Made by a program: the position numbers and the translations under genes. From an uncultured Mageeibacillus sp. (GTDB lineage: Bacteria; Bacillota; Clostridia; Saccharofermentanales; DTU023): a stretch of DNA of 64,000 nt. Below, piece by piece: positions 6,091-51,862 of this stretch. The DNA lies in assembly GCA_964346175.1 (NCBI GenBank), contig CAYFTG010000002.1:735-64734 (forward strand), written 5' to 3'. The notes under the pieces were generated by a model. The model saw nothing but the letters and a program-made list of their open reading frames with translations. It was not told the origin of the DNA and did no database searches. Each line of letters begins with the position of its first letter. Position 1 is the first letter of the stretch.

Positions 6091-6104
6091 GGAAAGTAAT
6101 ATAG

Positions 6105-7163: not shown

Positions 7164-7178
7164 GAAAAGAGGACACAA

Positions 7179-8210: not shown

Positions 8211-9192
8211 CACTCTTACAGCTAAATATCTACTTGAGGTAAATAATTTAAAGCAATATTTCGATATCAACACCGGGCTCTTCCGTTCCCAGCCGCTAAA
8301 GGCGGTTGACGATGTCAGTTTCAACATCAGTGAAGGAGAAACCTTGGGGCTAGTAGGGGAATCCGGCTGTGGGAAAACTACCGTCGGTCGCAGTATTCTC
8401 CATCTCTATGAGCCTACTGCTGGTGAAATCTCCTATAAGGGAAAAGAAATTAAGACGGAAAAGGATCTCAGTAAATTTCGCAAACAGGCGACAATGGTCT
8501 TTCAGGATCCGTACTCTTCCTTAAATCCCCGCATGACAGTTGCAGACATTATTGGAGAGCCCCTTGATGTCCACAAACTTTGTTCCTCCAAGAGTGAGCG
8601 CAAAGAACGCATCCTCGAACTAATGGACAGGGTCGGACTTAACAGCGAGCATGCAGCTCGTTATGCGCACGAGTTTTCCGGAGGCCAGAGACAAAGAATC
8701 GGTATCGCCAGAGCTTTGGCAGTCAAACCCGATTTCATCGTATGCGATGAACCGGTCTCGGCTCTGGACGTATCCATTCAGGCGCAGGTAATTAATATGT
8801 TTGAGGAATTGCAGGATGACTTAGGTCTGACTTATCTCTTCATAGCTCATGATCTGCTCATCGTGCGTCATATTTCTGATCGTATCGCAGTTATGTACTT
8901 GGGTAAGTTAGTAGAAATGTCGTCGGCTGATGAAATCTATGATCACCCACTGCATCCTTATTCCAAATCCTTAATTTCTGCGGTACCGGTCCCGGATCCT
9001 CGTATCGCACGCGCCCACGAACGTATTGTCTTAAAGGGTGAAATACCGAGTCCTTTGAACGCCCCTTCAGGCTGCGGCTTCCGCACACGCTGTCCGTATG
9101 CAATCGAATGTTGCGCGGAAACTGTTCCGGAATTCGAGGAAGTACACGAAGGCCATTTCGTAGCCTGTCACAGGGTAGACGAGATTAATTAG
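8203..9192 (+). CDS. oppF: oligopeptide ABC transporter ATP-binding protein
   Basis: 329 aa. Walker A GESGCGKT, signature FSGGQRQR, Walker [13 protein letters not shown]. Overlaps oppD by 8 nt. Confidence 0.92.
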
Positions 9193-9271
9193 TTTTCAAA
9201 TATGTTAGTTTTGCACAGCATATTTTGAAATAGATCTTATGCAAGTTTAAGCACTGGAAAGGAAGAAAACT

Positions 9272-11122
9272 ATGAAAAAGATTATCGCACTGCTACTAGT
9301 TTTAGCGCTGGCGCTATCAATAGTAGCCTGTAACGGTACTGACGAACCCGTAGTTACTGATCCACAAGGAACGGGAAGTCAAACAGCCCCCTCCACGGAT
9401 GAACCAAGTACACCAACTGAGCCTGTTGACCCAGGTGCAACAAGTATTGCTGTTTCTTTAGCTTCTGAGCCGGATACCCTAGACCCTGCTCTGAACTCAG
9501 CAGTTGACGGCGCTACCCTGATTATTCATCTTTTTTCAGGTCTAGCAAAATGGGAAACTGACGCAGACGGCAACTTTACAATCGTAGCTGATGCAGCGGA
9601 AGAACTGGTTGAAGGCGTTGCCAACGACGACGGCACTGTTACCTACACCTATACTTTGCGCGACGGCTTAAAGTGGTCAGATGGACAGGACGTCACAGCA
9701 GAAAATTTTGAATATGCATGGAAACGCGCCGCTTCAGTTGATCTGGGTGCCGACTATGGTTACATGTTTGAAGTTATAGACGGTTATGGTGAAGAACTTA
9801 ACGTTCAGGCCACCGACGAGAAAACGCTAGAAGTAACGCTGTCCAACGCAGTCCCCTACTGGGACGAGCTCCTGGCATTCCCGACTTACTTCCCCGTTCG
9901 CGAGGATGTAGTCGCTAATGAGGCTTGGGCAACTGACCCGGCAACTTACGTCTCAAACGGTCCCTACACGATGAGCTCATGGGATCACGACAGCAAAATT
10001 ACATTGCAGAAAAATCCGGATTGGTTTGATGCCGACACCATCACCATGGATACAATCGAATTCTACCTTTCCGATGACTCCAACAATATGCTCGCCAACT
10101 TCAAGAGTGGAGCCTGGCAGCTGATTGACGACGTACCGACCAATGAGATCGCTTCCTTGAAGGATGAGTATCCTGATGAATTTTTCATCCAAGGTCAGAT
10201 TGGTACCTATTACGTGTGCTGGAACGTTAATGCTAGCGTCCTGCCGGAAGGCTCCGACCTCAGTGGTGTTGAAGCAGAACTGGCTCAGGCCGAAATCCGT
10301 AATGCTATCAGCTTGCTCTTCGACCGTAATTACATCGTGGAAGATATCGCTCAAGGCGGACAGGTCCCGGCTTCATCCTTCGTAGCCATGGGTCTCACCG
10401 ATGCTGACGGCTCAGAGTTCTACCAGAACGCCGGCCCCAGCGGAGACTATCACGGTTACTTTAACGTTGATCCTTCCGAAGAAGTTATGGATGCTAACTA
10501 CAGTGAAGCACTTGAGATCTTGAAGAAGTATTATGACTTTGACGATGCGACGCAGCAATTCACCAACTTCCCCACCCTGGATTATCTCTACAATACCAGT
10601 GAGGGACATAAAGCTATCGGTGAGTACCTGCAAAGTGCCTTAGCCGGTGTTGGCATTAACATGACCATGGAAAACCAGGAATGGGCAACCTTCCTCAACA
10701 CCCGTAAAGAAGGCGACTACACAGTAGCTCGTAATGGTTGGATTGCTGACTACAATGATCCGATTACCTTGCTTGACCTGTGGACCTCCGGCTCCGGTAA
10801 CAACGACGTACAGTTCGGAAAAGGTGAGCACGCAGACGTTGCCGCTTACGACATTGACCTGACAGAGTACGGCCTTGACATCGTAGTTGAGGGTGGAACT
10901 TGGGCTGAAACCTATGATGTTGTCATCGCTCAGATCAAAGCTTCCACAGACGACGAACAGCGTTATGGTCTGATGCACGCCGCAGAAGACCTGCTCATGA
11001 GCACCGGCGCCGTTACCCCGATTTATTTCTACACTGATCTCTACATGTTGAGTGAATCAGTCAGCGGTTTCTACTCTAACCCGCTTGGCTACAAATACTT
11101 TATGTACACTTCAGTCGAATAA
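9272..11122 (+). CDS. oppA: peptide ABC transporter substrate-binding lipoprotein (family 5 SBP)
   Basis: 616 aa. Signal peptide with lipobox LALALSIVAC, then a Pro/Thr/Glu-rich linker. The body is that of a family-5 solute-binding protein (LDPALN..., TYTLRDGLKWSDG). Confidence 0.88.
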   Translation: MKKIIALLLVLALALSIVACNGTDEPVVTDPQGTGSQTAPSTDEPSTPTEPVDPGATSIAVSLASEPDTLDPALNSAVDGATLIIHLFSGLAKWETDADGNFTIVADAAEELVEGVANDDGTVTYTYTLRDGLKWSDGQDVTAENFEYAWKRAASVDLGADYGYMFEVIDGYGEELNVQATDEKTLEVTLSNAVPYWDELLAFPTYFPVREDVVANEAWATDPATYVSNGPYTMSSWDHDSKITLQKNPDWFDADTITMDTIEFYLSDDSNNMLANFKSGAWQLIDDVPTNEIASLKDEYPDEFFIQGQIGTYYVCWNVNASVLPEGSDLSGVEAELAQAEIRNAISLLFDRNYIVEDIAQGGQVPASSFVAMGLTDADGSEFYQNAGPSGDYHGYFNVDPSEEVMDANYSEALEILKKYYDFDDATQQFTNFPTLDYLYNTSEGHKAIGEYLQSALAGVGINMTMENQEWATFLNTRKEGDYTVARNGWIADYNDPITLLDLWTSGSGNNDVQFGKGEHADVAAYDIDLTEYGLDIVVEGGTWAETYDVVIAQIKASTDDEQRYGLMHAAEDLLMSTGAVTPIYFYTDLYMLSESVSGFYSNPLGYKYFMYTSVE

Positions 11123-11156: not shown

Positions 11157-11187
11157 GCCCCTCCTCTTTCGAGCGGAGGGGCTTTTT
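11157..11187 (+). terminator. rho-independent terminator after the opp operon
   Basis: Stem GCCCCTCC / GGAGGGGC with a 10-nt loop, followed by T5. Confidence 0.8.
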
Positions 11188-11290
11188 CGTGCCTCTCACA
11201 GTCCCTAAGGTGTCGCGTTTTCAGTCATAAAACGTTATAATAGTTACGGAAATTCGCATTAACGGATTGACATTTTGTAAAGGAGTAAAA

Positions 11291-12529
11291 ATGCTAAAAG
11301 GAAATCTTGTCTTTGGACAATCAGGAGGACCGACTTCTGTCATTAATTCAAGCGCTGCCGGCTTGCTGAGCTCGGCTTTGGCCAGCCCTGTCATTGGAGA
11401 AGTCTACGCCGCTGAACACGGAATAGTCGGGATTTTGAATGACCGGCTTTTCGACATTCGACAGGAAGACCCTGAGGAGCTGAAACTGCTTACTCAGACA
11501 CCTTCTTCCATCTTCGGATCCTGCCGACACAAACTTGCTGATTTCGATGAAGATGATAGCGATTATTATCGCATCCTCGAAATTTTTAAGAAACATAATA
11601 TCCGCTACTTTTTCTATAACGGTGGCAATGACACCATGGATACCTGTCATAAAATAAGTCAGTTTATGCAAAGGGAGGGCTATGAGTGTCGAGTGGTCGG
11701 CATTCCCAAAACGATTGATAATGACCTCTGCGGAACTGACCATTGCCCCGGCTTCGGCTCGGCAGCCAAATACGTGGCTACCAGTTTCATGGAAGTCAAA
11801 TTGGACTCACAAGTTTACAATTACCCGCAAATTATCATTGTCGAAGTAATGGGTCGTCATGCCGGCTGGCTGGCAGCTTCTTCTGTTTTAGCTGCGCACA
11901 AAGGCGCGGGTCCGGATCTGATCTATCTGCCGGAAAGAGCCTTCACGCTGGAACAGTTTGAACGCGACGTGCGCGCTGTATATGAGAAAAAGGGCGACGT
12001 AATGGTTTGCGTTTCCGAAGGCTGCCATGACGAAAACGGCAGATTTATACCGGAAATGTTTGACGACAGCAACTTGCAGACAGATGCTTTCGGGCATAAA
12101 CAACTCGGCGGAGCTGCCGATATGTTGGCCTCTTTTGTCAAGGATAAGTTCGGCGTCAAAGTTCGCGCCATTGAGTTCTCCTTGCTGCAACGCTGCGCCG
12201 CCCATATCGCTTCACCGATAGACGTCAAGGAAGCGTATGCGGCCGGTGAAACTGCTTTGCAATACGCTCTGGAGGGCCACAGCGATTTTATGATCGGATT
12301 TGAGCGCGTATCCAACGATCCCTACGAGATCAAGATGATCCGCGTTCCTCTTGAAGACTGCGCAAATCTGGAAAAGACACTTCCGGACGAATGGATTAAC
12401 GAGGCCGGTAACTTCGTGCTTCAGCCTTTTATCGACTACAGTTTGCCTCTGATACAGGGAGCAACCGAACGCAGTGAAGAGGATGGACTACCACATTTCG
12501 CCGAGCTTAAGAAAGTATTAGTCGATTAA
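11291..12529 (+). CDS. pfp: pyrophosphate-dependent 6-phosphofructokinase (PPi-PFK)
   Basis: PFK fold (FGQSGGPTSVIN). It has GGNDT where ATP-PFKs have GGDGS, so Asp occupies the position equivalent to Gly104. It also has PKTIDND with Lys where ATP-PFKs have Gly124. Both are the classical PPi-specificity markers. The start is placed at ATG 11291 (AAAGGAG RBS) rather than the ORF-track start at 11267. Confidence 0.8.
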   Translation: MLKGNLVFGQSGGPTSVINSSAAGLLSSALASPVIGEVYAAEHGIVGILNDRLFDIRQEDPEELKLLTQTPSSIFGSCRHKLADFDEDDSDYYRILEIFKKHNIRYFFYNGGNDTMDTCHKISQFMQREGYECRVVGIPKTIDNDLCGTDHCPGFGSAAKYVATSFMEVKLDSQVYNYPQIIIVEVMGRHAGWLAASSVLAAHKGAGPDLIYLPERAFTLEQFERDVRAVYEKKGDVMVCVSEGCHDENGRFIPEMFDDSNLQTDAFGHKQLGGAADMLASFVKDKFGVKVRAIEFSLLQRCAAHIASPIDVKEAYAAGETALQYALEGHSDFMIGFERVSNDPYEIKMIRVPLEDCANLEKTLPDEWINEAGNFVLQPFIDYSLPLIQGATERSEEDGLPHFAELKKVLVD

Positions 12530-12582
12530 CGTACATTCAGCTCTCAGAGGGCTTTTCTATACAAAGAAGGGAAAAATCATAC

Positions 12583-13083
12583 ATGAGCCAACAAAATGTA
12601 AGCATTGAAGAAAAACTGGATCTGAGTCTTCTCGATCCGGTTCTAGAGAAAAACAGCGGTCTCAAAGGCAGTGCTATAGCTATCTTGCAGGAAGCTCAAG
12701 AAATATACGGTTACCTGCCTTTAGAAGTGCTGGAGAAAATCTCCGAAGTAAGCAACGAGCCTCTAGCCAAACTCTATGGAGTCGCCACCTTCTACACGCA
12801 ATTTCGTATGAATCCGGTCGGCAAACACCTCATCATGCTCTGCCAAGGAACGGCTTGTCATGTAATGGGAGCCGATCGTGTCCAGCAAGCTATAGAGGAT
12901 GAGTTGGAGATTCAAAATGGTGAAACGACAGCAGATGGAGTCTTCACCTTACTGACAGTGGCCTGCTTGGGTTGTTGTTCACTTGCCCCCGTAATGATGA
13001 TTGACGGAGAGACCTACGCAAGTCTGACCTCCGATTCAGTGCGTAAGATTTTGCGCAAACTGCGAAAGGAAGCAGATGCTTAG
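12583..13083 (+). CDS. NuoE/HydC-like [2Fe-2S] thioredoxin-fold subunit of a flavin-FeS oxidoreductase complex
   Basis: 166 aa. Cys pattern CQGTACH...CLGCCSLAP is typical of the NuoE/HndA family. Confidence 0.88.
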   Translation: MSQQNVSIEEKLDLSLLDPVLEKNSGLKGSAIAILQEAQEIYGYLPLEVLEKISEVSNEPLAKLYGVATFYTQFRMNPVGKHLIMLCQGTACHVMGADRVQQAIEDELEIQNGETTADGVFTLLTVACLGCCSLAPVMMIDGETYASLTSDSVRKILRKLRKEADA

Positions 13084-13161
13084 TCTTAACGTTATTTTGA
13101 TAAATTCGCACACCACCTCCGATCCTTTGCGATCATGGTCTCAACATATAAGGAGTAATTA

Positions 13162-14922
13162 ATGAGAGTAGTTGTTGGCGCCGGTAGCTGTGGACTTGCT
13201 GCTGGAGCAGATAGCCTAGTAAAAGAACTAAAATCCAGAGACCTCGGCTCCGACACCGTGCTGGAAATCACCGGCTGTGTCGGAATGTGTTACCTCGAGC
13301 CGATTGTCGATATTTATGACGACTGCGGACAGTTGCATCGCTTTACCCAAGTCAAGCTTAAGGACCTGGATACCATCCTGGAACACTTTGATGAAGATAC
13401 CTGTGATCAGTTCAGAATCGCTGAAGACGACGAGCGCATTCTAGGCAAACAGGTACGCATCGTGCTGCGCAACTGCGGCGTGATCAATCCTGAATGCATT
13501 GATGATTACATCGCCAGCGGCGGTTACACTGCTCTGGAGCGTTGCGTAAAGGAAATGTCGCCGGAAGAAGTAATTGAAATAATCAAGGAATCCGGTCTGC
13601 GCGGTCGTGGAGGAGCAGGCTTCCCGGCATGGTTTAAATGGAACGCCGCCAGGAACGCTGCAGGAAAAGAAAAATATATGATCTGTAATGCTGACGAGGG
13701 TGATCCGGGAGCATTCATGGACCGCAGTATTCTCGAAGGCGACCCTCATGCCCTCTTAGAAGGCATGTTGATCGGCGCCTATGCAATCGGGGCAGAAACT
13801 TGCATGATCTACGTGCGAGCCGAATACCCTCTCGCAATCAAGCGCTTAAAGATTGCCATTGAACAAGCCAGAGAGCGCGGCTACCTCGGTAAGAACGTAC
13901 TAGGGGTCGAGGGTCTCAATTTCGAAATGATCATCCGTGCAGGAGCAGGAGCTTTCGTCTGTGGTGAAGAAACAGCCTTGATTGCTTCGCTTGAAGGCGA
14001 ACGCGGAATGCCTAGACTCAAACCACCCTTCCCTGCCGAACGTGGATATTTCAGAAGTCCTACAAATATCAATAACGTTGAGACTTTAGCCAACGTACCT
14101 TATATAATCGCCAAGGGACCCGAGGCCTTCACCAAATACGGTACTGAGAAAAGTCCGGGCACCAAGGTTTTTGCCCTTACAGGTAAAATCAAAAAAGGCG
14201 GCCTAGTGGAAATCCCCATGGGAACACCGTTGAAAGAAATTATCTACGATATTGGCGGCGGCATCATTGATGACCGTGAGTTGAAGGGCGTCCAGATGGG
14301 CGGTCCTTCCGGCGGCTGTATCCCGGCCTCAATGATGGATACACCGGTTGATTATGAGAACATCGTCAAGACAGGAGCTATTGTCGGTTCAGGCGGAATG
14401 GTTGTCATGGACGACAGCACCTGTATGGTTGAGATGGCACGTTTTTTCCTAGATTTCACCTGTGAAGAATCTTGCGGAAAATGCACTTATTGCAGACTGG
14501 GAACCAAGCGTATTCTAGAAATACTGGAACGCATAACCTCCGGTGACGGGCGTGCAGACGATATCGAACTACTCGAGGAAATTTGCCCCAAGGTCATGGA
14601 AGGCTCACTCTGTGGTCTCGGCCAGACAGCACCTAACCCGGTCTTGACGACTATGAAATATTTCCGTGATGAGTACGAAGCGCATTTGGATGGTAGATGT
14701 CCGGCAAAAGTGTGTCAGCCCTTGATTCACTATCATATCAATGAAAAGTGTACCGGCTGTACAATCTGTGCCCGCAACTGCCCTGTCGGCGCTATCTCAG
14801 GCGCATTGAAAGAGGATCACATTATCGATCAAGATATGTGTACAAAATGTGGTATTTGCTTTGAAAAATGCAATTTCGATGCGATTGATCTCTTGGAAGG
14901 AGCCTTTCTATGGCAAGAATAA
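13162..14922 (+). CDS. NuoF/HydB-like NAD(H)- and FMN-binding FeS subunit
   Basis: 586 aa. N-terminal thioredoxin-like 2Fe-2S region (GCVGMCYLEP), FMN/NADH site GLRGRGGAGFPAWFKW, NuoF 4Fe-4S motif ESCGKCTYCR, and two C-terminal ferredoxin-type CxxCxxCxxxCP motifs. Confidence 0.9.
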   Translation: MRVVVGAGSCGLAAGADSLVKELKSRDLGSDTVLEITGCVGMCYLEPIVDIYDDCGQLHRFTQVKLKDLDTILEHFDEDTCDQFRIAEDDERILGKQVRIVLRNCGVINPECIDDYIASGGYTALERCVKEMSPEEVIEIIKESGLRGRGGAGFPAWFKWNAARNAAGKEKYMICNADEGDPGAFMDRSILEGDPHALLEGMLIGAYAIGAETCMIYVRAEYPLAIKRLKIAIEQARERGYLGKNVLGVEGLNFEMIIRAGAGAFVCGEETALIASLEGERGMPRLKPPFPAERGYFRSPTNINNVETLANVPYIIAKGPEAFTKYGTEKSPGTKVFALTGKIKKGGLVEIPMGTPLKEIIYDIGGGIIDDRELKGVQMGGPSGGCIPASMMDTPVDYENIVKTGAIVGSGGMVVMDDSTCMVEMARFFLDFTCEESCGKCTYCRLGTKRILEILERITSGDGRADDIELLEEICPKVMEGSLCGLGQTAPNPVLTTMKYFRDEYEAHLDGRCPAKVCQPLIHYHINEKCTGCTICARNCPVGAISGALKEDHIIDQDMCTKCGICFEKCNFDAIDLLEGAFLWQE

Positions 14923-17900
14923 ATGTTACGATAAATGGCCGCAGCTTCGAGGCAGAACAAGGCCTCACCATTTTCCAAATAGCACGCGATAACGACATCT
15001 ATATTCCGACGCTTTGTCAGGATGACAAGCTGGAGAGCTATGGTTCCTGCGGTATGTGTGTCGTGGAAGTTGAAGGCAATAACAAACTTGTGCGTGCCTG
15101 TTCCACACCTGCGAGCGACAAGATGGTTATTCACACCCGCACAGAGCGTGTCACCGAATCTCGCAAAACCGCCTTGGAGCTTTTCATCACTAACCATACC
15201 GGTGATTGTAAGGCACCCTGTTCCCTCACCTGTCCTGATAATTTAGATATCCAAGGCTATGTCGGTCTCTGTGGCAACGAAGAGTACGATGCTGCACTGC
15301 GCCTGATCAAAGAGGATCTGCCTCTTCCGGCGTCTATTGGTCGCATCTGCCCGCATCCGTGCCAAACGGCCTGTCGCCGTGCTTTGATTGACGATGACAT
15401 CGAAATCAACTATCTCAAGCGTTTCGTGGCCGACCGTGATTTGAATTCAGGCTCTCCATACAAGCCGGAGCAGAAGCCCTGGACAGGCAAACATGTAGCC
15501 ATTGTCGGCGGTGGTCCCTCCGGACTGTCCGCAGCTTACTTCCTCCTGCGCGAGGGACACGACGTGACTGTCTATGACGAAAATCCTGAATTTGGCGGCA
15601 TGATGCGCTACGGCATCCCTATGTACAGACTGCCCAATGACATTATTTATCAGGAAGCGCAACTGATCGCTGATATGGGCGCAACACTCGTGCCCAATAC
15701 TAAAATTGGTCGCGATCTTTCTTTGGATTACCTGCGTGAAAACTTTGATGCAGTATATGTCGCAGTCGGCATGTGGCAGAGCATTCCTCTGGGTATTGAG
15801 GGAGAAGATCTGGCAGGTGTCTACGGCGGTATTGACTTCCTCTATGATTTCTGTGTCGGACAACCGCTACACCTAGGCAAAAAAGTAGCAGTCATCGGCG
15901 GCGGTAACACAGCCATGGACGCCGCTCGTACAGCCATCCGCATGGGTGCAGAAGAAGTCACCGTCCTTTATCGCCGCACCAAAGCTGACATGCCGGCTGA
16001 AGAGATTGAAATTATCGAAGCCGAAGAAGAAGGCATCCAGTTCAAGTTCTTAGTGACTCCGGTCTCCTTGAAGGGACAAGATGGACAGCTTCAGGGCATT
16101 ACACTGCAGAATATGCGCGCTATCCCACCAGCAAATCCGGGAGAACGCAGCAAGATTGAGCCGATTGAAGGCGAGTTTACTGAACTAGACTTGGACAGCT
16201 TAATCGTAGCTACCGGGCAGAGAACAAACTTGGCCGGTTTAGAAGACATCGCTACTGATCGCTGGGGCCTGATTGATATCGACAAGTCTACATATCAGAC
16301 ATCTCTCCCGGGCGTTTTCGCAGGCGGTGACGTAATTGACAACGGCTACAAGATTGCCATTCAGGCGATAGCTGATGCCAAGCACGCTTCTTACGTGATC
16401 TCGAATTACCTTAACGGTAAAGAAGTTAATTATGTCCCCGACTACCATGTCGTACGTACAGACGTAACACGAGAAGAGCTGCTCAAAACCTTCAGCGAAA
16501 CCGAGAGCGCAAAAATGGAGCACATGTCCCCTGCTGATCGCCGCGATAATTTCCATGAGATCGCTGCCGGATACACAGAAGTACAAGCCCAATACGAGGG
16601 TGATCGTTGTCTCGAATGCGGCTGCATGGACTACTTCGAATGTGACCTCTTTGATCAATTTAATCGCTACGATGTTGAGCCGGAGCGCTTTGCAGGTGAG
16701 ATGAGTGATTTCGATCATGACAATGATCATCCTTATATTTTGATAGATCCTAACAAATGTGTTCTCTGCGGCATGTGTGTGCGCGTCTGTGATGAAGTCA
16801 TGGGTGTGTACGCCTTGGGCCTGGCTGATCGCGGTTTTGAATCCCGCATGCTTCCGGCCGCTCATCGTCGTTTGCAGGATACCAACTGCATCTCTTGCGG
16901 GCAGTGTGTCGAGCTGTGCCCGGTAGGAGCCTTGCAGGAGCGTCGTCCCGTACATAAACAAGTACCTCTCGACAGTGTCCACACGTTTACTACCTGTGCC
17001 GGCTGCTCCTTTGGCTGTTCACAAATCCTAGAAAGCACCGGCGACATGCTGCTGAGAGCTTTACCGGTTGAAAATTGTGTTGTCTCCGGCGGCCTACTCT
17101 GCGAAAAGGGACGCTTCGAACTGGATAGATTCCTACCCTCGAACGAAAACCGCGTCAGATGTCACATGGTGCGTCATGACGGAGTATTGGAAGAAGCGAG
17201 CTTCGATGAAGCCAGCCTTTCTTTCACACGTGGTGCTCAGGCTCTCTTGGCGGTGGAAGGCGCAGACAAACTAGCAATTTCAATCTCCGACGAATATACG
17301 CTGGAAGAAATAGCTCTAATCCGCTCTTTTACTGAGTCTTATCTAGGGGATACCAAACTCTACAGCCTGGATTACAAAAAGAGTGCTTTAGAAGAACTGC
17401 TCGGAAGCGACCGCTCTCCTAACACCTTTAACGAAGTCTACTCCACTGATCTCGTGATCGTCGTGGGTGGAGACCTCTTGCAGTCCCATCCCATGATGGC
17501 GACAAAGATCCGTCATGCCATGAAGGAAGGCCTACAGCTAGGCATCATTAATACACAGGATACCCTGATGGATCAATGGACCACCGGGCTGCTCAAAGGC
17601 GACAATCTTCTCGCCTTATTAAATGAGTTCAGCGGGCCCACTTCCGAACTGGGTCAGCGCTATCGCAGCGCTAAACGAGCACTCCTTGTCTACGATAAGG
17701 ACGCTGTCAGCTATGAGGAAGAAAGCAAGTTACTCGAGATAGCTCAAGATAGCGGACACTTCGGCTCCACGGGTCAAGGGCTGATCCAGCTCAAGGCCAA
17801 CGCCAACTCTCAGGGTCTGTATGATCTTGGTGTGAGAAGCAGCCGTGAAGAACTGCTAAAAGGCATTGAAAGCGGACAAATTAAGGGCCTACTACTCTTT

Positions 17901-18248
17901 GGCGATAGTGATTTGCCGGAAGAATATGCTGCACAACTGAATTTCCTCGCTGTACAAGCTACGAAGCAATCCCCTAGTCTGTTGCAGGCAGATGTAATCT
18001 TAGCAGGCGCGGCAATAGCTGAAAAAGAAGGCCTTATCACGAGTAGCGAAGGCAGAGTGCAGGCCATTGAACGAGTTCTGGATACGGATGTAGACAGCTT
18101 TGATCAGCTCCGTTACTTCTGGCATCATTTCGATCGTTCCGACTCGGAAATAAATCTCGAAAACACACGTGAAGCTGTGGTCTTTTACAATGAAGACTAC
18201 CAGGGAATTCTTGATCCCGATCACTATGCAGTCTGGGCCAGAGCCTAG
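14910..18248 (+). CDS. fusion protein with four parts in order: a NuoG-type 2Fe-2S N-terminus, a GltD-like NAD(P)H/FAD module, 4Fe-4S domains, and a truncated molybdopterin-oxidoreductase-like domain
   Basis: 1112 aa. The 2Fe-2S region is CQDDKLESYGSCGMCVVEV. The GltD-like FeS region is CPDNLDIQGY...GRICPHPCQTACRR. Two dinucleotide folds follow: VAIVGGGPSGLSAAYFL and VAVIGGGNTAMDAAR. Then come CVLCGMCVRVC, CISCGQCVELCPVGAL and an MopB-type TCAGCSFGC cluster, followed by only about 420 aa. I found no [FeFe]-hydrogenase H-cluster motifs. The start overlaps the upstream stop by 13 nt. Confidence 0.8.
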   Translation: MARINVTINGRSFEAEQGLTIFQIARDNDIYIPTLCQDDKLESYGSCGMCVVEVEGNNKLVRACSTPASDKMVIHTRTERVTESRKTALELFITNHTGDCKAPCSLTCPDNLDIQGYVGLCGNEEYDAALRLIKEDLPLPASIGRICPHPCQTACRRALIDDDIEINYLKRFVADRDLNSGSPYKPEQKPWTGKHVAIVGGGPSGLSAAYFLLREGHDVTVYDENPEFGGMMRYGIPMYRLPNDIIYQEAQLIADMGATLVPNTKIGRDLSLDYLRENFDAVYVAVGMWQSIPLGIEGEDLAGVYGGIDFLYDFCVGQPLHLGKKVAVIGGGNTAMDAARTAIRMGAEEVTVLYRRTKADMPAEEIEIIEAEEEGIQFKFLVTPVSLKGQDGQLQGITLQNMRAIPPANPGERSKIEPIEGEFTELDLDSLIVATGQRTNLAGLEDIATDRWGLIDIDKSTYQTSLPGVFAGGDVIDNGYKIAIQAIADAKHASYVISNYLNGKEVNYVPDYHVVRTDVTREELLKTFSETESAKMEHMSPADRRDNFHEIAAGYTEVQAQYEGDRCLECGCMDYFECDLFDQFNRYDVEPERFAGEMSDFDHDNDHPYILIDPNKCVLCGMCVRVCDEVMGVYALGLADRGFESRMLPAAHRRLQDTNCISCGQCVELCPVGALQERRPVHKQVPLDSVHTFTTCAGCSFGCSQILESTGDMLLRALPVENCVVSGGLLCEKGRFELDRFLPSNENRVRCHMVRHDGVLEEASFDEASLSFTRGAQALLAVEGADKLAISISDEYTLEEIALIRSFTESYLGDTKLYSLDYKKSALEELLGSDRSPNTFNEVYSTDLVIVVGGDLLQSHPMMATKIRHAMKEGLQLGIINTQDTLMDQWTTGLLKGDNLLALLNEFSGPTSELGQRYRSAKRALLVYDKDAVSYEEESKLLEIAQDSGHFGSTGQGLIQLKANANSQGLYDLGVRSSREELLKGIESGQIKGLLLFGDSDLPEEYAAQLNFLAVQATKQSPSLLQADVILAGAAIAEKEGLITSSEGRVQAIERVLDTDVDSFDQLRYFWHHFDRSDSEINLENTREAVVFYNEDYQGILDPDHYAVWARA

Positions 18249-18290
18249 TTTAGATACTCGAGCTTAGTTTGCACAATCGTTAATCCTAAA

Positions 18291-18320
18291 GCCTCCGTTC
18301 CTCAGAGCGGAGGCTTTTTT
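18291..18320 (+). terminator. rho-independent terminator after the three-gene oxidoreductase operon
   Basis: Stem GCCTCCG / CGGAGGC with a 10-nt loop, followed by T6. Confidence 0.8.
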
Positions 18321-18439
18321 ACTCAAACTTTATTTTGGCGCTACTTGAATGATTTCTATTTTGATATTTCTCCCTTATACTAGGTACTAAGAACAGTAGT
18401 TTCGATTGAATCATCGAAAATTAGTTTAGGATTTTGTAT

Positions 18440-20071
18440 ATGAAGGATGCACCAATTTATATTTTTGGACACAAGAATCCCGATACAGACTCAATTTGTT
18501 CGGCCATCGCTTATGCTGAGTTAAAAAAAGCACAGGGACATAGAGCCAAACCGATCCGCCTGGGCAAGATTAACAAGGAAACGGAATTTGTACTCGATTA
18601 CTTCAATGTCGCTGCTCCCGATTATCTCCCTACTATCAGAACTCAGATTTCCGACTTGAATATTGATAAAGTCGAACACCTGAGTCCCCTATTATCCTTG
18701 CGGACAGCTTGGGAAAAAACTAAAAGCACTAATATCAAGGTAGCTGCTGTAGTGGATGAAGAGGATAAACTCTTAGGCATCGTGACGCTCTCCGACATCA
18801 CTAGCCGTTTCATGGATATCCAAGGCAATGTCGAAGCACTTAAAGCCACTCCCTTGAAAAATATCTTAAAAACTCTGAGTGCCTATCTTTTAGCGGGCTC
18901 TGAGGAACAGTTCAAACCCAGTGGAAACGCTCTTATCGCCGCCATGACTCCTGACGGAATGGCCCCTTTCGTAGAAAAGAATGATATCGTGCTGGTTGGA
19001 AACCGCAGGGATAGCCAACTTAAGTCCATTGCGGAAGGAGCTAACTGCCTGATTGTCACCTGCGACGGACATGTTTATGAAGATGTAATTAAAAAGGCGG
19101 AAAAGCATGGCTGCATCATTATGAGAACGATGCATGATACCTATACGGCCGCCCTCTTGCTTAATCAGAGCATACCGGTCGAATTTGTGATGGCCAAGGA
19201 TAGCCTAGCCGCCTTCCAAATCAACGACTATATTGACGAGATCAAGGAAGAAATGCTTCAGTCCAGACACAGAGCATACCCGGTCGTAGACAGCAACAAT
19301 GTCGTTCAAGGCTTCGTCACCCGCTACCATCTGATCAGCCAAAACAACAAAAGAGTCATTCTCGTCGACCACAACGAAATCTCTCAATCCATCGACGGCT
19401 TGGAACAAGCACAAATCTTGGAAATAATCGATCATCACCGCATTGGCGGCATCATGACCGGCTCGCCCATCTACTTCAAGAATGAAGCGGTGGGTAGCAC
19501 CGCCACCATAATTTCGGGATTATATCGGGACTTTAAGATAAGACCTTCAGCTAATATTGCAGGCATTTTGTGCGCTGCCATTATTTCCGACACGATGTAT
19601 TTTAAGTCGCCGACCAGCACCGGCAAAGACAAATACATGGCTGAGAAGATGGCAGAAGTGGCCGGCTTGGATCTTGACGAATTTTCTAAAAAAATGCTCG
19701 ACAGCTCATCCTCAATAATCAGCATGAGCCCTAAAGAAATTCTCAATTATGATTTCAAGGAATTCTTCCTCAATCGGCACAAGGTCGGTATCGGGCAAAT
19801 CACTTCCAGCAATATGGAGGAACTGGACCTTATCAGAGAAGACCTTCTCGCCTATCTCGAGGAAACTCTAGAGGCCAAAGAATATCAGGTCTTAATGATC
19901 ATCGTGTCCGACCCGGCGCGTGAAGGTTCAGAGATCTTATTTGCAGAGAAAGAAAGCGGCACCGTCAACAGAGCATTTAACACCGGCACTACTAATAACA
20001 GCATGTTCCTCAAGGGAGTTGTCTCAAGAAAGAAACAGATTGTTCCTTTCTTGAACTCAGTCCTGAAATAG
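18440..20071 (+). CDS. ppaC: CBS-domain-containing family II (DHH) inorganic pyrophosphatase
   Basis: About 543 aa. DHH N-terminus YIFGHKNPDTDSICSAIAYA with an inserted CBS pair and a DRTGG-like segment (CLIVTCDGH). Then LVDHNE, IIDHHRIG and the DHHA2 C-terminal domain. The start could be TTG 18434 or ATG 18440. Confidence 0.85.
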   Translation: MKDAPIYIFGHKNPDTDSICSAIAYAELKKAQGHRAKPIRLGKINKETEFVLDYFNVAAPDYLPTIRTQISDLNIDKVEHLSPLLSLRTAWEKTKSTNIKVAAVVDEEDKLLGIVTLSDITSRFMDIQGNVEALKATPLKNILKTLSAYLLAGSEEQFKPSGNALIAAMTPDGMAPFVEKNDIVLVGNRRDSQLKSIAEGANCLIVTCDGHVYEDVIKKAEKHGCIIMRTMHDTYTAALLLNQSIPVEFVMAKDSLAAFQINDYIDEIKEEMLQSRHRAYPVVDSNNVVQGFVTRYHLISQNNKRVILVDHNEISQSIDGLEQAQILEIIDHHRIGGIMTGSPIYFKNEAVGSTATIISGLYRDFKIRPSANIAGILCAAIISDTMYFKSPTSTGKDKYMAEKMAEVAGLDLDEFSKKMLDSSSSIISMSPKEILNYDFKEFFLNRHKVGIGQITSSNMEELDLIREDLLAYLEETLEAKEYQVLMIIVSDPAREGSEILFAEKESGTVNRAFNTGTTNNSMFLKGVVSRKKQIVPFLNSVLK

Positions 20072-20073
20072 AA

Positions 20074-21387
20074 TCAGCTGCCAAACTCTACTTCCACGGT
20101 TGCCGGCAGCAAGCTAGCTCCGCCCAGTTCCAGCCACTGGGCCTCTGAACCGGCGAAGCGGACTACCTCCAACTTGTCGCTGGAGCGGAAAGCGTTTGCG
20201 TCAATCTCGATCACGGATGCGGGAATTTCAATAGAAAGTAAAGAGTTGCAGCGCGCAAAAGCAGAGCTGCCAATTTTGCTGACCTGTTCCGGAATTGTGA
20301 CGCTTGTCAAAGAAATGCAATCGGCAAAAGCTGAATCTCCAATTATTTCTAAAGAATCCGGAAGATCGATATACTCCAGCTTATGGCTTTTTCTGAAAGC
20401 ACTACTGCTGATTTCAATTAAGGAACCGGGCAATTCAACAGTCTCTAGAGCAAAGCAGTCCGCAAACATCCAGTCTTCGATTTTTTGAATAGAATTTGAA
20501 AAGCTGACGCTCTTCAGATTTGAGCAGCCGGAAAACGCCCTTCTGCCGATTTTGCTCACAGAATCAGCCATCTTTACGCTCTCAAGATTGGCAGAATTTG
20601 CGAAGGCATACAGGCCAATCTCGCTAATAGAGCTTGGGATTTCTATCGAAATCAGCGAGTGACAGTTGGAGTAGGTCCAATCCTCAATAACACTGACATT
20701 CTCGGAATGAGAGATATCGCTTAAGGAGAAACAGCCGTAAAAGGCTCCCTTACCTATAGAAGTAACTGAATCAGGAATGTCGATGGAACCCAGCGCATAA
20801 CTGTACTTGAAAGCGTATTCCCCGATGGATTTAATAGAATCGGGCAACTCAATTGTCTCCAGTAACGGCAAACCCGAGAAGGCATAGTTACCGATTTCAG
20901 TGACAGAATCAGGAATTTCCACACTTTCCAAGAGAGGCAGATCTGCGAAAGCATAGCGATCAATAATCGTTACCGAATCCGGGACAGTGACGCGTTCCAG
21001 ATACTTAAAAAAGAAATCTTCCACTTTGTCTCTGTCACTCATCAGTCTGACTCTACAAATGTCTCTCAGTGCTACCACATTGTAGCCGTCAACAGTATCC
21101 GGAATGCTCCAACTGGCATCCCAATTATCATAATCAAAATCTTCCGGAGGCTGATACTCCGTCAGAATAATATTATTGTTGCCCAATTTATCGTAGACAT
21201 AGCCGAGTGGCTGTTCGGAGGAAACATTTTCGATTCCCGGATCAGCTCTTTTTTCCAGCCATGGTTCTATAACAAAAGGTTTCAGCACGATTCCGACAGC
21301 TACTAAAATAGGTATAGCTGCGAGTATACTGCCAATTTTGAGCCAGTTTTTGCGTCTTACCGGCCTTTTTCTCTTGCCTTTACTCAT
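20074..21387 (-). CDS. membrane-anchored leucine-rich-repeat protein (BspA-type LRR_5 repeats)
   Basis: 437 aa. Basic N-terminus plus one TM helix (WLKIGSILAAIPILVAVGIVL). This is followed by roughly 12 tandem units of about 23 aa with the pattern IPDSVTxIGxxAFxxCxxLxSI. Confidence 0.8.
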   Translation of the reverse strand: MSKGKRKRPVRRKNWLKIGSILAAIPILVAVGIVLKPFVIEPWLEKRADPGIENVSSEQPLGYVYDKLGNNNIILTEYQPPEDFDYDNWDASWSIPDTVDGYNVVALRDICRVRLMSDRDKVEDFFFKYLERVTVPDSVTIIDRYAFADLPLLESVEIPDSVTEIGNYAFSGLPLLETIELPDSIKSIGEYAFKYSYALGSIDIPDSVTSIGKGAFYGCFSLSDISHSENVSVIEDWTYSNCHSLISIEIPSSISEIGLYAFANSANLESVKMADSVSKIGRRAFSGCSNLKSVSFSNSIQKIEDWMFADCFALETVELPGSLIEISSSAFRKSHKLEYIDLPDSLEIIGDSAFADCISLTSVTIPEQVSKIGSSAFARCNSLLSIEIPASVIEIDANAFRSSDKLEVVRFAGSEAQWLELGGASLLPATVEVEFGS

Positions 21388-51829: not shown

Positions 51830-51862
51830 GATAGAACGATAAATATTCATTATGTGGAGGCT

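What the first reader, a model, noticed from the sequence alone, without database searches (positions are those of the whole stretch)
12583..18248. NuoE/NuoF/NuoG-GltD three-subunit complex: candidate Sporomusa-type Nfn (Bfu-family) electron-bifurcating transhydrogenase
Three translationally coupled genes encode this complex. The first is a NuoE-like 2Fe-2S protein. The second is a NuoF-like FMN/NADH subunit with the extra N-terminal 2Fe-2S and C-terminal 2x[4Fe-4S] domains seen in bifurcating HydB-type subunits. The third is an 1112-aa protein in which a complete GltD-like NADPH/FAD module (about aa 95-500) is inserted between the NuoG-type 2Fe-2S N-terminus and its 4Fe-4S domains. It ends in a truncated MopB-like domain of about 420 aa, too short for a catalytic molybdopterin domain. 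I found none of the H-cluster motifs (TSCCP, MPCxxK, CxxGCxxGGG). The complex therefore has two different nicotinamide sites plus ferredoxin-type clusters and no obvious third substrate site. This is the architecture reported for StnABC/NfnABC (NADH + ferredoxin : NADP+). It sits directly after the PPi-PFK gene, which suggests a central redox-balancing role.
Basis: partly seen in the sequence, partly recalled or inferred. Interest (0 to 1): 0.55.

Follow-up and report, generated by a model that had tools for sequence, protein, structure and literature searches.

The report
Stn/NfnABC electron-bifurcating transhydrogenase operon

Summary
Window 12583-18248 carries three intact + strand genes: a 166-aa NuoE-like protein, a 586-aa NuoF/HydB-like protein and a 1112-aa fusion protein. 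The fusion reads [2Fe-2S] domain, GltD/NfnL-like FAD/NADPH module, 2x[4Fe-4S], then a truncated cofactor-less Fdh/NuoG-like domain.

For all three proteins the best solved-structure matches are the three characterised enzymes of this type: C. saccharolyticus NfnABC (9BOV/9BP5), S. ovata StnABC (8OH5/8OH9) and T. sibiricus NfnABC (9N5U). E-values reach 1e-279, far ahead of hydrogenases, formate dehydrogenases and complex I. Identities to Stn/Csac are about 60% (small subunit), 63-64% (NuoF-like) and 46-49% (large subunit).

Every ligand and substrate-site residue named in those structure papers is conserved:
- 26 Cys plus His96 plus Lys170, enough for seven clusters
- Arg240, GGGPSG (FAD), and GGGNTA with YRRT (NADPH)
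- the FMN/NAD loops and the B1, B3 and B4 clusters
- the His508/Cys Zn site that marks bifurcating BfuB subunits

H-cluster motifs and the Mo-ligand Cys/Sec-His are absent.

Only genes 2 and 3 overlap; genes 1 and 2 are 78 nt apart. The N-terminal site of the NuoF-like subunit has 3 Cys plus Glu, which holds Zn in Csac.

Verdict: interpretation supported; new member of a known family; low interest.

The parts
11291..12529 (+). Context gene: PPi-dependent 6-phosphofructokinase (pfp). It is probably the first gene of the same transcription unit.
   Evidence: NF010675, E 5e-166. The likely true start is ATG 11291, behind AAGGAG; relatives align from ORF residue 8-9 onward. An oppA terminator and a TATAAT at 11237-11242 lie upstream. 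Only a weak 6-bp hairpin (12539-12553) separates it from stnA.
12583..13083 (+). stnA / nfnC (BfuC): NuoE-like small subunit of 166 aa and 18.2 kDa. It carries one [2Fe-2S] cluster (called A1 or C1) on Cys87, Cys92, Cys128 and Cys132.
   Evidence: PF01257, E 1e-49. Best PDB matches are 9bov_C (5e-59), 8oh5_A (1.5e-58) and 9n5u_C. Identity is 59.5-59.9% over 152-153 aa. The motif CQGTACH...ACLGCCSLAP is identical to that in Stn and Csac.
13084..13161 (+). 78-nt spacer between stnA and stnB, containing the stnB ribosome-binding site (AAGGAG).
   Evidence: Sequence read directly. No significant structure: MFE -7.1, z +0.77.
13162..14922 (+). stnB / nfnB (BfuB): NuoF/HydB-like subunit of 586 aa and 63.9 kDa. 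It holds the FMN and NAD(H) site. Its features are: an N-terminal thioredoxin-like domain (Cys10/39/43 plus Glu46); cluster B1 (Cys438/441/444/484); a Zn-type site (Cys421, His508, Cys513, Cys518); and C-terminal clusters B3/B4 (Cys530/533/536/540 and Cys560/563/566/570), which form the ferredoxin-reducing end.
   Evidence: Pfam hits. PDB matches: 8oh5_B 1.9e-251, 9bov_B 1.4e-248, 9n5u_B 3.7e-234. Identity 63-64%. NAD loops GLRGRGGAGFP (145-155) and TGAIVGSGG (404-412), Phe154, Phe290, Lys159, Glu269 and NADEGDPGAF are conserved. His508 is the bifurcation marker of Schut et al..
14910..15194 (+). stnC / nfnA, aa 1-95: HydA/NuoG-type N-terminal [2Fe-2S] domain (Cys36/47/50/64).
   Evidence: PF13510, aa 3-78. 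These Cys are invariant in 19 of 19 aligned homologues.
15195..16424 (+). stnC / nfnA, aa 96-505: inserted GltD/NfnL-like module that forms the NADP(H) site. It contains His96/Cys100/104/108, Cys147/151/155 and Lys170 (ligands of two [4Fe-4S] clusters), FAD motif GGGPSG (200-205), Arg240, and NADPH motifs GGGNTA (330-335) and YRRT (354-357).
   Evidence: PF14691 and PF07992. 5jca_L NfnI large subunit, 3e-77. Cys108/147/151 plus Lys170 match the Csac A7 ligands at the same residue numbers. K170 and R239 were shown by mutagenesis in Stn. These columns are invariant.
16425..16934 (+). stnC / nfnA, aa 506-675: the permuted GltD leader with Cys567/570/572/578, followed by the 2x[4Fe-4S] ferredoxin-like domain (Cys617/620/623/627 and Cys660/663/666/670).
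   Evidence: The HMMER alignment places NfnL residues 15-46 against query residues 540-571. PF22117, aa 608-675. These Cys are invariant.
16977..18248 (+). stnC / nfnA, aa 690-1112: truncated, cofactor-less Fdh/NuoG-like (MopB) domain with one [4Fe-4S] motif (Cys696/699/703/731). In Stn and Csac NfnABC this domain is a scaffold and tetramer interface.
   Evidence: PF00384, aa 748-1060. Identity to StnC 601-1068 is 31%. The FDH catalytic Cys/Sec-His position reads L-Y-S-L-D-Y here, and S-L/S-F across the family. The only 'CH' (aa 751-752) is not conserved even in the 96%-identical homologue. A segment of about 30 aa and a tail of about 45 aa are absent relative to typical members of about 1190 aa.
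18288..18323 (+). Rho-independent terminator that closes the operon.
   Evidence: 13-bp GC-rich hairpin plus a U-run, MFE -21.7 kcal/mol, z -6.5, with 0 of 200 shuffles as stable. Sequence.

Best explanation
The locus encodes a heterotrimeric Stn/NfnABC complex. This is the Nfn type of the BfuABC family of FMN-based electron-bifurcating enzymes. It catalyses the reversible reaction NADH + reduced ferredoxin + 2 NADP+ <-> NAD+ + oxidised ferredoxin + 2 NADPH.

Mechanism, by homology to the solved enzymes:
1. NADP(H) binds the GltD/NfnL-like FAD module of the 1112-aa subunit.
2. Electrons move one at a time along that subunit's chain of clusters: the Lys170-ligated [4Fe-4S], the next [4Fe-4S] clusters, then the N-terminal [2Fe-2S].
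3. They reach cluster B1 and the FMN of the NuoF-like subunit.
4. The FMN, together with B1 and the [2Fe-2S] of the NuoE-like subunit, forms the bifurcating 'flavobicluster'. The high-potential branch ends in NAD(H) stacked on the FMN.
5. The low-potential branch runs through the mobile [2Fe-2S] domain of the small subunit to the C-terminal 2x[4Fe-4S] domain. That domain exchanges electrons with ferredoxin.
6. The C-terminal Fdh-like domain has no molybdopterin chemistry and acts as a scaffold.

In a sugar- or peptide-fermenting Oscillospiraceae-type anaerobe, the likely physiological direction is NADPH production for biosynthesis from the NADH and ferredoxin pools.

What is shown here: gene integrity, architecture, closest relatives, and conservation of every named ligand and substrate-site residue. 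What is inferred: the activity itself, its direction in vivo, and the oligomeric state.
For: 1. For each subunit the top three PDB sequence matches are the three characterised Nfn-Bfu/Stn enzymes, aligned full length. The PDB codes are tied to the papers.
2. Identities are 59.5-59.9% (A), 63-64% (B), and 46-49% (C core) with 31% in the C tail.
3. The large subunit keeps 26 Cys plus His96 plus Lys170, which is 28 ligands for one [2Fe-2S] and six [4Fe-4S] clusters. This is the cofactor count reported for StnC and Csac NfnA. All are invariant in 19 aligned homologues.
4. Residues tested by mutagenesis in Stn and in Tsi NfnABC are present. These are Lys170 (Tsi K165E nearly abolishes bifurcation) and Arg239, which is Arg240 here.
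5. The NADPH-type motifs GxGxxA and YRRT and the FAD motif GxGxxG are present.
6. The NuoF-like subunit keeps the NAD/FMN loops and Phe/Lys/Glu contacts described for Csac NfnB. It also keeps the E184/D186 loop of StnB, cluster B1, clusters B3/B4, and the His-containing B2 site. That His is missing in only 8 of 1558 BfuB sequences and is not present in non-bifurcating homologues.
7. Gene order (NuoE-like, NuoF-like, fusion) and predicted masses of 18.2/63.9/123.1 kDa match the predicted masses of the Stn subunits, 19/63.5/126.4 kDa.
8. Homologues at 45-47% identity come from genera that Kremp et al. list among Stn-encoding organisms, such as Acetoanaerobium and Alkaliphilus.
9. There are no H-cluster motifs, no Mo-ligand Cys/Sec-His and no MopB cap domain.
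10. The operon is bounded by a strong terminator. The operon and its synteny are conserved in five related MAG loci.
Against: No biochemical data exist for this protein or for any close relative above 54% identity. Function is therefore transferred across 46-64% identity.

StnC Cys114 tunes the first cluster, and C114A halves activity in Stn. Here it is Ile114, but the Stn paper notes Val or Ile at this position in other homologues, and T. sibiricus NfnA has Val.

The Fdh-like domain is only 31% identical to StnC. It lacks an internal segment of about 30 aa and a C-terminal tail of about 45 aa. That domain mediates tetramerisation in Stn and Csac, so assembly may differ.

The metal at the N-terminal site of the B subunit cannot be decided from sequence.

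No ferredoxin gene and no NADPH-consuming pathway were identified next to the operon to support the proposed in vivo direction.
Confidence: 0.88

Rival explanations
1. The complex is a non-bifurcating NAD(P)H diaphorase or simple transhydrogenase. The architecture is Stn-like, but ferredoxin is not a substrate and no energetic coupling occurs.
For: The N-terminal site of the B subunit has only 3 Cys plus Glu. StnC Cys114 is replaced by Ile. The Fdh-like domain is trimmed. No biochemistry exists for this lineage.
Against: The features that separate bifurcating BfuB from non-bifurcating homologues are all present: the B2-site His508 with its Cys partners, the C-terminal B3/B4 clusters, and the small subunit's [2Fe-2S]. 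The same 3Cys+Glu N-terminal site occurs in Csac NfnB, which does bifurcate. Val at the Cys114 position occurs in the bifurcating T. sibiricus enzyme.
Confidence: 0.05
2. The complex is an Nso/Sfr-like NADPH-dependent reductase of sulfur, oxygen or Fe(III). NADPH would be the donor, and an inorganic acceptor rather than NAD+/ferredoxin would be the physiological partner.
For: The T. litoralis NsoABC subunits are close homologues of StnABC and were first described as an NADPH:sulfur/oxygen oxidoreductase. SfrAB of Geobacter shares the GltD-like and NuoG-like parts.
Against: Kremp et al. argue that Nso is probably itself an Nfn-type enzyme. The related T. sibiricus complex was shown to be a genuine bifurcating Nfn. 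Sfr lacks the NuoE/NuoF-like bifurcating core that is present here. The query matches the bacterial Stn and Csac enzymes better than the archaeal one.
Confidence: 0.04
3. The complex is a formate dehydrogenase-type or hydrogenase-type Bfu complex, or a glutamate-synthase partner. In that case the third substrate is formate or H2, or the GltD module feeds a GltB subunit.
For: Database names for homologues include 'formate dehydrogenase major subunit' and 'molybdopterin-dependent oxidoreductase'. The best NCBIfam model name is 'putative NADPH-dependent glutamate synthase small subunit', but the score of 640 is below its cut-off of 916.
Against: There is no Cys/Sec-His at the FDH active-site position and no PF01568 domain, and the MopB part is only about 420 aa. 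H-cluster motifs are absent. Purified Stn showed no formate activity. No gltB or other GltD paralogue lies in the window. FDH alpha subunits score about 207 bits, against 863-931 for Stn and Nfn.
Confidence: 0.01

Closest known systems
Caldicellulosiruptor saccharolyticus NfnABC (Csac_0621 cluster; PDB 9BP5/9BOV; Li et al. 2025, PMC11829005)
   Same: It has the same three-gene architecture and order. It gives the best PDB scores for the large and small subunits (E 9.5e-279 and 4.7e-59), with 1.4e-248 for the NuoF-like subunit. Identities are 46% (large subunit, aa 4-899), 63% (NuoF-like) and 59.5% (small). The A7 ligands carry identical residue numbers (Cys108/147/151, Lys170). The NAD-contact loops are the same. 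Both share the 3Cys+Glu N-terminal site in the B subunit and the 3Cys+His Zn site. The host is likewise a non-acetogenic fermenter, in which the enzyme is said to supply NADPH for biosynthesis.
   Different: The query's large subunit is 66 aa shorter (1112 vs 1178 aa), and its Fdh-like tail aligns only weakly (27% over 153 aa). It has Ile114 where Csac has Cys. It has Thr459 where Csac has Cys at the fifth B2-site position. The host here is a presumed mesophile rather than a thermophile. The query has no biochemical data.
Sporomusa ovata StnABC (SOV_1c07740-60; PDB 8OH5/8OH9; Kremp et al. 2020, Kumar et al. 2023)
   Same: This is the founding member of the family. The alignment is full length (large subunit 1-1057 vs 1-1068, E 2.5e-258; NuoF-like E 1.9e-251). 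Identities are 64% (B), 60% (A), and 49%/31% (C core and tail). K170, R239, the E184/D186 loop, all cluster motifs, and the GxGxxG and GxGxxA motifs are conserved.
   Different: In S. ovata the genes lie downstream of the Wood-Ljungdahl cluster of an acetogen. Here they follow a PPi-phosphofructokinase gene, and no acetogenesis genes were seen in the annotated part of the 64-kb window. Cys114 is Ile here. The Fdh-like domain is shorter by about 60 aa.
Thermococcus sibiricus NfnABC (PDB 9N5U/9N5V; Schut et al. 2022; PMC12018979)
   Same: It has the same NuoE/NuoF-like bifurcating core (B subunit E 3.7e-234) and the same GltD-like insertion with the Lys-ligated cluster. It has Val rather than Cys at the StnC-114 position, comparable with Ile here.
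   Different: The archaeal large subunit is 963 aa, has an even more reduced C-terminal domain, lacks one cluster, and is a single heterotrimer rather than a tetramer. The query retains all seven cluster motifs.
NfnAB / NfnSL (classical bifurcating Nfn; PDB 5JCA, 4YLF)
   Same: It catalyses the same overall reaction. The query's aa 102-502 are homologous to the large subunit NfnL/NfnB (E 3e-77).
   Different: It belongs to an unrelated complex type. NfnSL bifurcates at the FAD of NfnL and has no NuoE/NuoF-like subunits. In the Stn type the homologous FAD is non-bifurcating, and a Lys replaces the Glu cluster ligand.
Bifurcating [FeFe]/[NiFe] hydrogenases HydABC(SL) (PDB 7Q4V, 8A6T, 7P5H, 7T2R)
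   Same: The HydB/HydC core is homologous (B subunit 589-695 bits). The N-terminal and ferredoxin-like cluster domains of HydA are homologous to the ends of the large subunit.
   Different: There is no H-cluster and no NiFe subunits. The catalytic module is replaced by the NADP(H)/FAD module.

Membership tests
Stn / Nfn-type BfuABC (Type 1 Bfu) | Three adjacent genes encode a NuoE-like (BfuC/StnA), a NuoF/HydB-like (BfuB/StnB) and a large BfuA/StnC subunit. | tested here: met
   ORFs at 12583-13083, 13162-14922 and 14910-18248. Domain content. The order is the same as SOV_1c07740-60.
Stn / Nfn-type BfuABC (Type 1 Bfu) | The large subunit is a fusion of a GltD/NfnL-like FAD/NADP(H) module with NuoG/HydA-like cluster domains and an inactive Fdh-like C-terminal domain. 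| tested here: met
   Pfam order is Fer2_4, Fer4_20, Pyr_redox_2, Fer4_Nqo3, Molybdopterin. Full-length alignment to 8oh5_C and 9bov_A. The FDH active-site Cys/Sec-His is absent.
Stn / Nfn-type BfuABC (Type 1 Bfu) | The large subunit has seven Fe-S sites (one [2Fe-2S] and six [4Fe-4S]). The first [4Fe-4S] next to FAD is ligated by 3 Cys plus an invariant Lys (StnC K170 / Csac K170). | tested here: met
   26 Cys plus His96 plus Lys170 are present and invariant in 19 homologues. Csac ligands Cys108/147/151/Lys170 carry the same numbers here.
Stn / Nfn-type BfuABC (Type 1 Bfu) | FAD and NADP(H) binding motifs of the GltD-like module (GxGxxG; GxGxxA with the following Arg-Arg) and Arg239 near the FAD. 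| tested here: met
   GGGPSG 200-205, GGGNTA 330-335, YRRT 354-357 and Arg240. These columns are invariant. The motifs are as described.
Stn / Nfn-type BfuABC (Type 1 Bfu) | StnC Cys114, a second-sphere residue of the first cluster. The Stn paper states that it is not strictly conserved. | tested here: not met
   The residue is Ile114 here and in the nearest 10 aligned homologues. Kumar et al. note Val or Ile in other homologues, and T. sibiricus NfnA has Val. The authors do not treat it as defining.
Bifurcating BfuBC core | BfuB has FMN/NAD(H) site loops, cluster B1, a His-containing B2 (Zn) site and C-terminal B3/B4 [4Fe-4S] clusters. These B2-B4 sites are absent in non-bifurcating NuoF homologues. 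| tested here: met
   GLRGRGGAGFP 145-155, TGAIVGSGG 404-412 and NADEGDPGAF 176-185. B1 is Cys438/441/444/484. B2 is Cys421, (Thr459), His508, Cys513 and Cys518. B3/B4 are the 530-540 and 560-570 motifs.
Bifurcating BfuBC core | BfuC/StnA has a thioredoxin-like domain carrying a [2Fe-2S] cluster (CxxxxC...CxxxC). Deleting this cluster abolishes bifurcation in Stn. | tested here: met
   Cys87/92/128/132, with the motif identical to Stn and Csac. Functional requirement.
Bifurcating BfuBC core | [quoted passage not shown] | tested here: inconclusive
   The domain is present with Cys10/39/43 plus Glu46, the same pattern as both StnB and Csac NfnB. An extra Cys55 is unique to the query. The metal cannot be read from sequence.
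Stn / Nfn-type BfuABC (Type 1 Bfu) | Catalytic activity: NAD+-dependent reduction of ferredoxin by NADPH, and the reverse reaction. FAD plus FMN are present and Mo/W is absent. | not testable with these tools
   This requires anaerobic purification and assays. It has been shown only for the S. ovata, C. saccharolyticus and T. sibiricus enzymes.
Stn / Nfn-type BfuABC (Type 1 Bfu) | Quaternary structure: a tetramer of heterotrimers held by the large subunit in the bacterial members. | not tested
   The Fdh-like domain that forms the interface is trimmed here. The archaeal member with a still shorter domain is a single heterotrimer. No multimer modelling was run.
Mo/W formate dehydrogenase (MopB superfamily) | A Sec/Cys-His Mo ligand pair, a full four-domain MopB fold and the C-terminal molydop_binding cap. 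| tested here: not met
   The aligned position reads LYSLDY. The region is only about 420 aa, with a partial PF00384 hit and no PF01568 among listed hits.
[FeFe] hydrogenase (HydA) | H-cluster motifs TSCCP, MPCxxK and ExMxCxxGCxxGGG. | tested here: not met
   The regex search of the protein found none of the three motifs. The six-frame search of the window for TSCCP and MPCxxKxxE also found none.

The most novel reading that the evidence does not exclude
In this Mageeibacillus-like Oscillospiraceae lineage the Stn/NfnABC enzyme is a trimmed variant. Its scaffold (Fdh-like) domain has lost an internal segment of about 30 aa and the C-terminal tail of about 45 aa, and residue 114 is Ile. The variant might no longer form the tetramer seen in the bacterial prototypes. 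It may also be co-transcribed with PPi-phosphofructokinase, tying NADPH regeneration directly to a pyrophosphate-based glycolysis. Both points are compatible with the data, but neither is shown.
Probability: 0.15. Interest if true: 0.25.

Novelty: new member of a known kind. Interest (0 to 1): 0.15.

Why it matters
It matters mainly for annotation. Public records name these proteins 'FAD-dependent oxidoreductase', 'molybdopterin-dependent oxidoreductase' or 'formate dehydrogenase major subunit'. The evidence here supports annotating them as a ferredoxin- and NADH-dependent NADP+ reductase (Stn/NfnABC).

For metabolic models of anaerobic-digester and gut Oscillospiraceae, this assigns the link between the NADH, ferredoxin and NADPH pools. 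It does not open a new question about bifurcation. The family, its structures and its mechanism are already published.

Tried and rejected
1. I looked for an upstream alternative start that would close the gap between genes 1 and 2. None exists; 13162 is the first start after the in-frame stop, and StnB and Csac NfnB align from residue 1.
2. I folded the 78-nt spacer to look for a regulatory hairpin. It is no better than shuffles.
3. I searched for a Rex operator (TTGTGAAnnnnTTCACAA, up to 3 mismatches). The only match is a 3-mismatch site inside the opp genes, fewer than expected by chance.
4. The consensus promoter/terminator scan was no better than its shuffles (13 promoter-like and 13 terminator-like sites, 9.9 and 8.7 expected) and missed the obvious terminator after stnC, which folding confirmed.
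5. I searched the window for paralogues of the GltD, NuoF, NuoE and NuoG-like modules, such as a classical NfnAB or a hydrogenase. Only chance-level hits appeared.
6. I considered Cys751-His752 as a possible relic Mo-ligand pair. I rejected it: the position is wrong, and the 96%-identical homologue has Arg there.
7. I checked the extra DNA of about 1.1 kb between stnC and the pyrophosphatase gene in related loci for a ferredoxin or regulator. It holds only an antisense 237-aa ORF of unknown function.
8. A literature search for Mageeibacillus together with Nfn found nothing.
9. Structure prediction and the large profile searches were not run. The sequence matches to solved structures were already decisive.

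Full report
OBSERVATION. The stated interval holds three uninterrupted + strand ORFs: 12583-13083 (166 aa), 13162-14922 (586 aa) and 14910-18248 (1112 aa) (translations).

Domain content:
- Gene 1 is a NuoE-type thioredoxin-like [2Fe-2S] protein (PF01257, E 1e-49).
- Gene 2 has the NuoF core (Complex1_51K, SLBB, NADH_4Fe-4S). It also has a C-terminal 2x[4Fe-4S] domain (aa 525-575) and a weak N-terminal thioredoxin-like ferredoxin hit (aa 17-78).
- Gene 3 reads, in order, Fer2_4 (aa 3-78), Fer4_20 (100-179), Pyr_redox_2 (195-490), Fer4_Nqo3 (608-675) and a partial Molybdopterin domain (748-1060). NCBIfam GltD/gltA-type models cover aa 100-503.

H-cluster motifs are absent. The upstream gene is a PPi-dependent phosphofructokinase.

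Three details need correction.
1. Only genes 2 and 3 overlap (13 nt, with GGAAGGAG before the ATG). Genes 1 and 2 are separated by an unstructured 78-nt spacer, and gene 2 has its own AAGGAG.
2. The N-terminal domain of the NuoF-like subunit carries Cys10, Cys39, Cys43 and Glu46, not four Cys.
3. The GltD-like module is permuted. Its CxxC-bearing leader lies after the flavin domains, at aa 540-578.

WHAT IT IS. A sequence search of all PDB chains gives the same three entries at the top for every subunit:
- 9BOV/9BP5: large subunit E 9.5e-279, NuoF-like 1.4e-248, small 4.7e-59
- 8OH5/8OH9: 2.5e-258, 1.9e-251, 1.5e-58
- 9N5U/9N5V: 3.9e-171, 3.7e-234, 1.2e-48

These entries are Caldicellulosiruptor saccharolyticus NfnABC, Sporomusa ovata StnABC and Thermococcus sibiricus NfnABC. 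All three were shown biochemically to couple NADPH oxidation to simultaneous NAD+ and ferredoxin reduction.

The next-best matches score much lower:
- bifurcating hydrogenase HydB: 589-695 bits, against 830-839 for the Nfn/Stn B subunits
- non-bifurcating FDH beta and Nqo1: about 380-420 bits
- FDH alpha: about 207 bits, against 863-931 for the Nfn/Stn large subunits

BLASTP identities are 63-64% for the NuoF-like subunit. For the large subunit they are 49% (aa 1-593) plus 31% (aa 605-1057) to StnC, and 46% (aa 4-899) to Csac NfnA. The small subunit is 59.5-59.9% identical. Predicted masses of 18.2/63.9/123.1 kDa compare with the predicted masses of the Stn subunits, 19/63.5/126.4 kDa.

RESIDUE-LEVEL TESTS, LARGE SUBUNIT. 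The structure papers report one [2Fe-2S] and six [4Fe-4S] clusters in the large subunit. The query keeps 26 Cys in these groups:
- 36/47/50/64
- 100/104/108
- 147/151/155
- 567/570/572/578
- 617/620/623/627
- 660/663/666/670
- 696/699/703/731

With His96 and Lys170 this makes 28 ligands. All of them are invariant in an alignment of 19 homologues spanning 44-96% identity.

The unusual first cluster is ligated in Csac by Cys108, Cys147, Cys151 and Lys170, and the query has the same residues at the same numbers. Lys170 and Arg239 (Arg240 here) were shown by mutagenesis to be needed in Stn. The equivalent K165E change nearly abolishes bifurcation in the T. sibiricus enzyme.

The FAD motif GGGPSG (200-205) and the NADP(H)-type motif GGGNTA (330-335), followed by YRRT (354-357), are present and invariant. 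The only named residue that differs is StnC Cys114, which is Ile114 here. The Stn authors already note Val or Ile at that position in other homologues, and T. sibiricus NfnA has Val.

RESIDUE-LEVEL TESTS, NuoF-LIKE AND SMALL SUBUNITS. The NAD/FMN contacts described for Csac NfnB are conserved:
- loop GLRGRGGAGFP (aa 145-155)
- loop TGAIVGSGG (aa 404-412)
- Phe154, Phe290, Lys159 and Glu269

The StnB loop with Glu184 and Asp186 is also conserved, as NADEGDPGAF at 176-185.

The remaining cluster and metal sites in this subunit are:
- cluster B1: Cys438/441/444/484
- C-terminal clusters: Cys530/533/536/540 and Cys560/563/566/570
- B2 site: Cys421, Thr459, His508, Cys513 and Cys518

According to Schut et al., the His of the B2 site is missing in only 8 of 1558 BfuB sequences and is not present in non-bifurcating homologues. 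Non-bifurcating homologues also lack sites B2 to B5. The small subunit has the [2Fe-2S] motif (Cys87/92/128/132), whose deletion abolishes bifurcation in Stn.

THE C-TERMINAL DOMAIN. Residues 690-1112 are a reduced MopB-like domain. At the position of the FDH catalytic Cys/Sec-His, the query and all of its relatives have non-ligand residues (LYSLDY here). The only Cys-His pair (aa 751-752) is not conserved even in the 96%-identical homologue. No MopB cap domain is detected. This matches StnC, whose FdhF-like domain is described as catalytically inactive and needed for assembly. Purified Stn did not oxidise formate.

Compared with typical family members of about 1190 aa, the query clade lacks an internal segment of about 30 aa after residue 907. 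It also lacks about 45 C-terminal residues. Kremp et al. list putative StnC homologues of 891-1204 aa, so this length is within the known range.

CONTEXT. The nearest genomic relative is a MAG named Mageeibacillus sp. UBA5442, with 96-98% protein identity. Other relatives at 80-84% are Eubacteriales and Clostridiaceae MAGs. Mageeibacillus belongs to the Oscillospiraceae.

The gene order is PPi-PFK, A, B, C, then a CBS-domain family II pyrophosphatase. This order is conserved in that clade but not in a 53%-identical Peptostreptococcaceae locus, which keeps only ABC. The adjacency is therefore lineage-specific and is weak evidence for a functional link.

A strong intrinsic terminator follows stnC (18288-18323; -21.7 kcal/mol; z -6.5). 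Upstream of pfp lie the oppA terminator and a TATAAT box. Between pfp and stnA there is only a weak 6-bp hairpin. A pfp-stnABC transcript is plausible but unproven. No Rex box was found, and the window holds no paralogous modules.

MECHANISM. The following is inferred by homology and is not shown here.
1. NADP(H) reacts at the FAD of the GltD-like module.
2. Single electrons pass along the cluster chain of the large subunit to B1 and FMN in the NuoF-like subunit.
3. FMN, B1 and the small subunit's [2Fe-2S] form the bifurcating flavobicluster. NAD(H) is the high-potential partner at the FMN.
4. The mobile [2Fe-2S] domain of the small subunit hands low-potential electrons to the C-terminal 2x[4Fe-4S] domain, which exchanges them with ferredoxin.
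5. In a fermenter the expected in vivo direction is NADH + reduced ferredoxin to NADPH for biosynthesis, as stated for C. saccharolyticus.

RIVALS. Three alternatives were considered.
- A non-bifurcating diaphorase. The presence of every bifurcation-specific site argues against it.
- An Nso/Sfr-like reductase of sulfur, oxygen or iron. This is unlikely because the closest relatives are proven Nfn enzymes, and because Nso itself is suspected to be an Nfn.
- An FDH-type, hydrogenase-type or glutamate-synthase reading. This is contradicted by the missing active-site motifs and by the absence of partner genes.

NOVELTY AND SCORE. The family was described in 2020 and placed in the Bfu family in 2022. 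It was solved structurally in 2023 and 2025, and is reported as widespread in Firmicutes. This locus is a new, uncharacterised member in an uncultured lineage with minor trimming of the scaffold domain. The practical value is better annotation, since databases call it an FAD-dependent or molybdopterin-dependent oxidoreductase, or a formate dehydrogenase. Interest is 0.15.

Noticed in passing
window 11267-12529, 18434-20071 and 51791-53863: Three pyrophosphate enzymes lie in one 64-kb window. They are a PPi-dependent phosphofructokinase, a CBS-domain family II (Mn-dependent) soluble pyrophosphatase directly after the stn terminator, and a membrane H+/Na+-translocating pyrophosphatase (PF03030, E 2e-266). 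The last is followed by a DUF1538 protein (53894-55393). Together they suggest a PPi-centred energy metabolism.
   Followed up: partly
window 11160-11293: The PFK ORF as listed starts at TTG 11267. Homologues align only from ORF residue 8-9, and ATG 11291 sits 5 nt after AAGGAG, so the real start is probably 11291. The oppA terminator (11161-11181 plus T-run) and a TATAAT at 11237-11242 lie just upstream.
   Followed up: partly
window 5161-11122: A complete oligopeptide ABC transporter operon (oppB, oppC, oppD, oppF and a 616-aa OppA-like binding protein) lies immediately upstream. This hints at peptide use by the organism.
   Followed up: no
L002 10602-11726; L004 11333-12421; L005 4736-5793: Related MAG loci carry about 1.1 kb of extra DNA between stnC and the pyrophosphatase gene that the window lacks. 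In L004 it holds an antisense 237-aa ORF of unknown function.
   Followed up: partly
protein P0006 (72% identical StnC homologue), C-terminal region: This homologue has an insertion of about 50 aa made of a repeated low-complexity unit (…NLRCRAGDEPNLRCRAGGEPNLRRRAGDEPNLRRRSGG…) inside the Fdh-like domain. That insertion explains its length of 1170 aa despite belonging to the trimmed clade.
   Followed up: no
window 40884-42434 (- strand): A 516-aa protein fuses a Sua5/TsaC threonylcarbamoyl-AMP synthase (Sua5_yciO_yrdC plus Sua5_C) to a C-terminal low-molecular-weight phosphotyrosine phosphatase domain.
   Followed up: no
window 20074-21387 (- strand): A 437-aa leucine-rich-repeat, adhesin-like protein (HupY/LrrG-type repeats) converges on the pyrophosphatase gene. 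It is conserved at 92% in L001 but at only 64% in L002.
   Followed up: no
window 46310-47938: A 542-aa aldehyde dehydrogenase family protein (PF00171, E 3.5e-99). I did not examine whether it is an NADP-dependent (GapN-like) enzyme relevant to NADPH supply.
   Followed up: no
window 13162-14922, residue 55 of the NuoF-like subunit: [quoted passage not shown] It falls in a gap or non-Cys position in StnB, Csac NfnB and Tsi NfnB. It could in principle act as a fourth thiolate at the B5 site, but this was not analysed across relatives.
   Followed up: no
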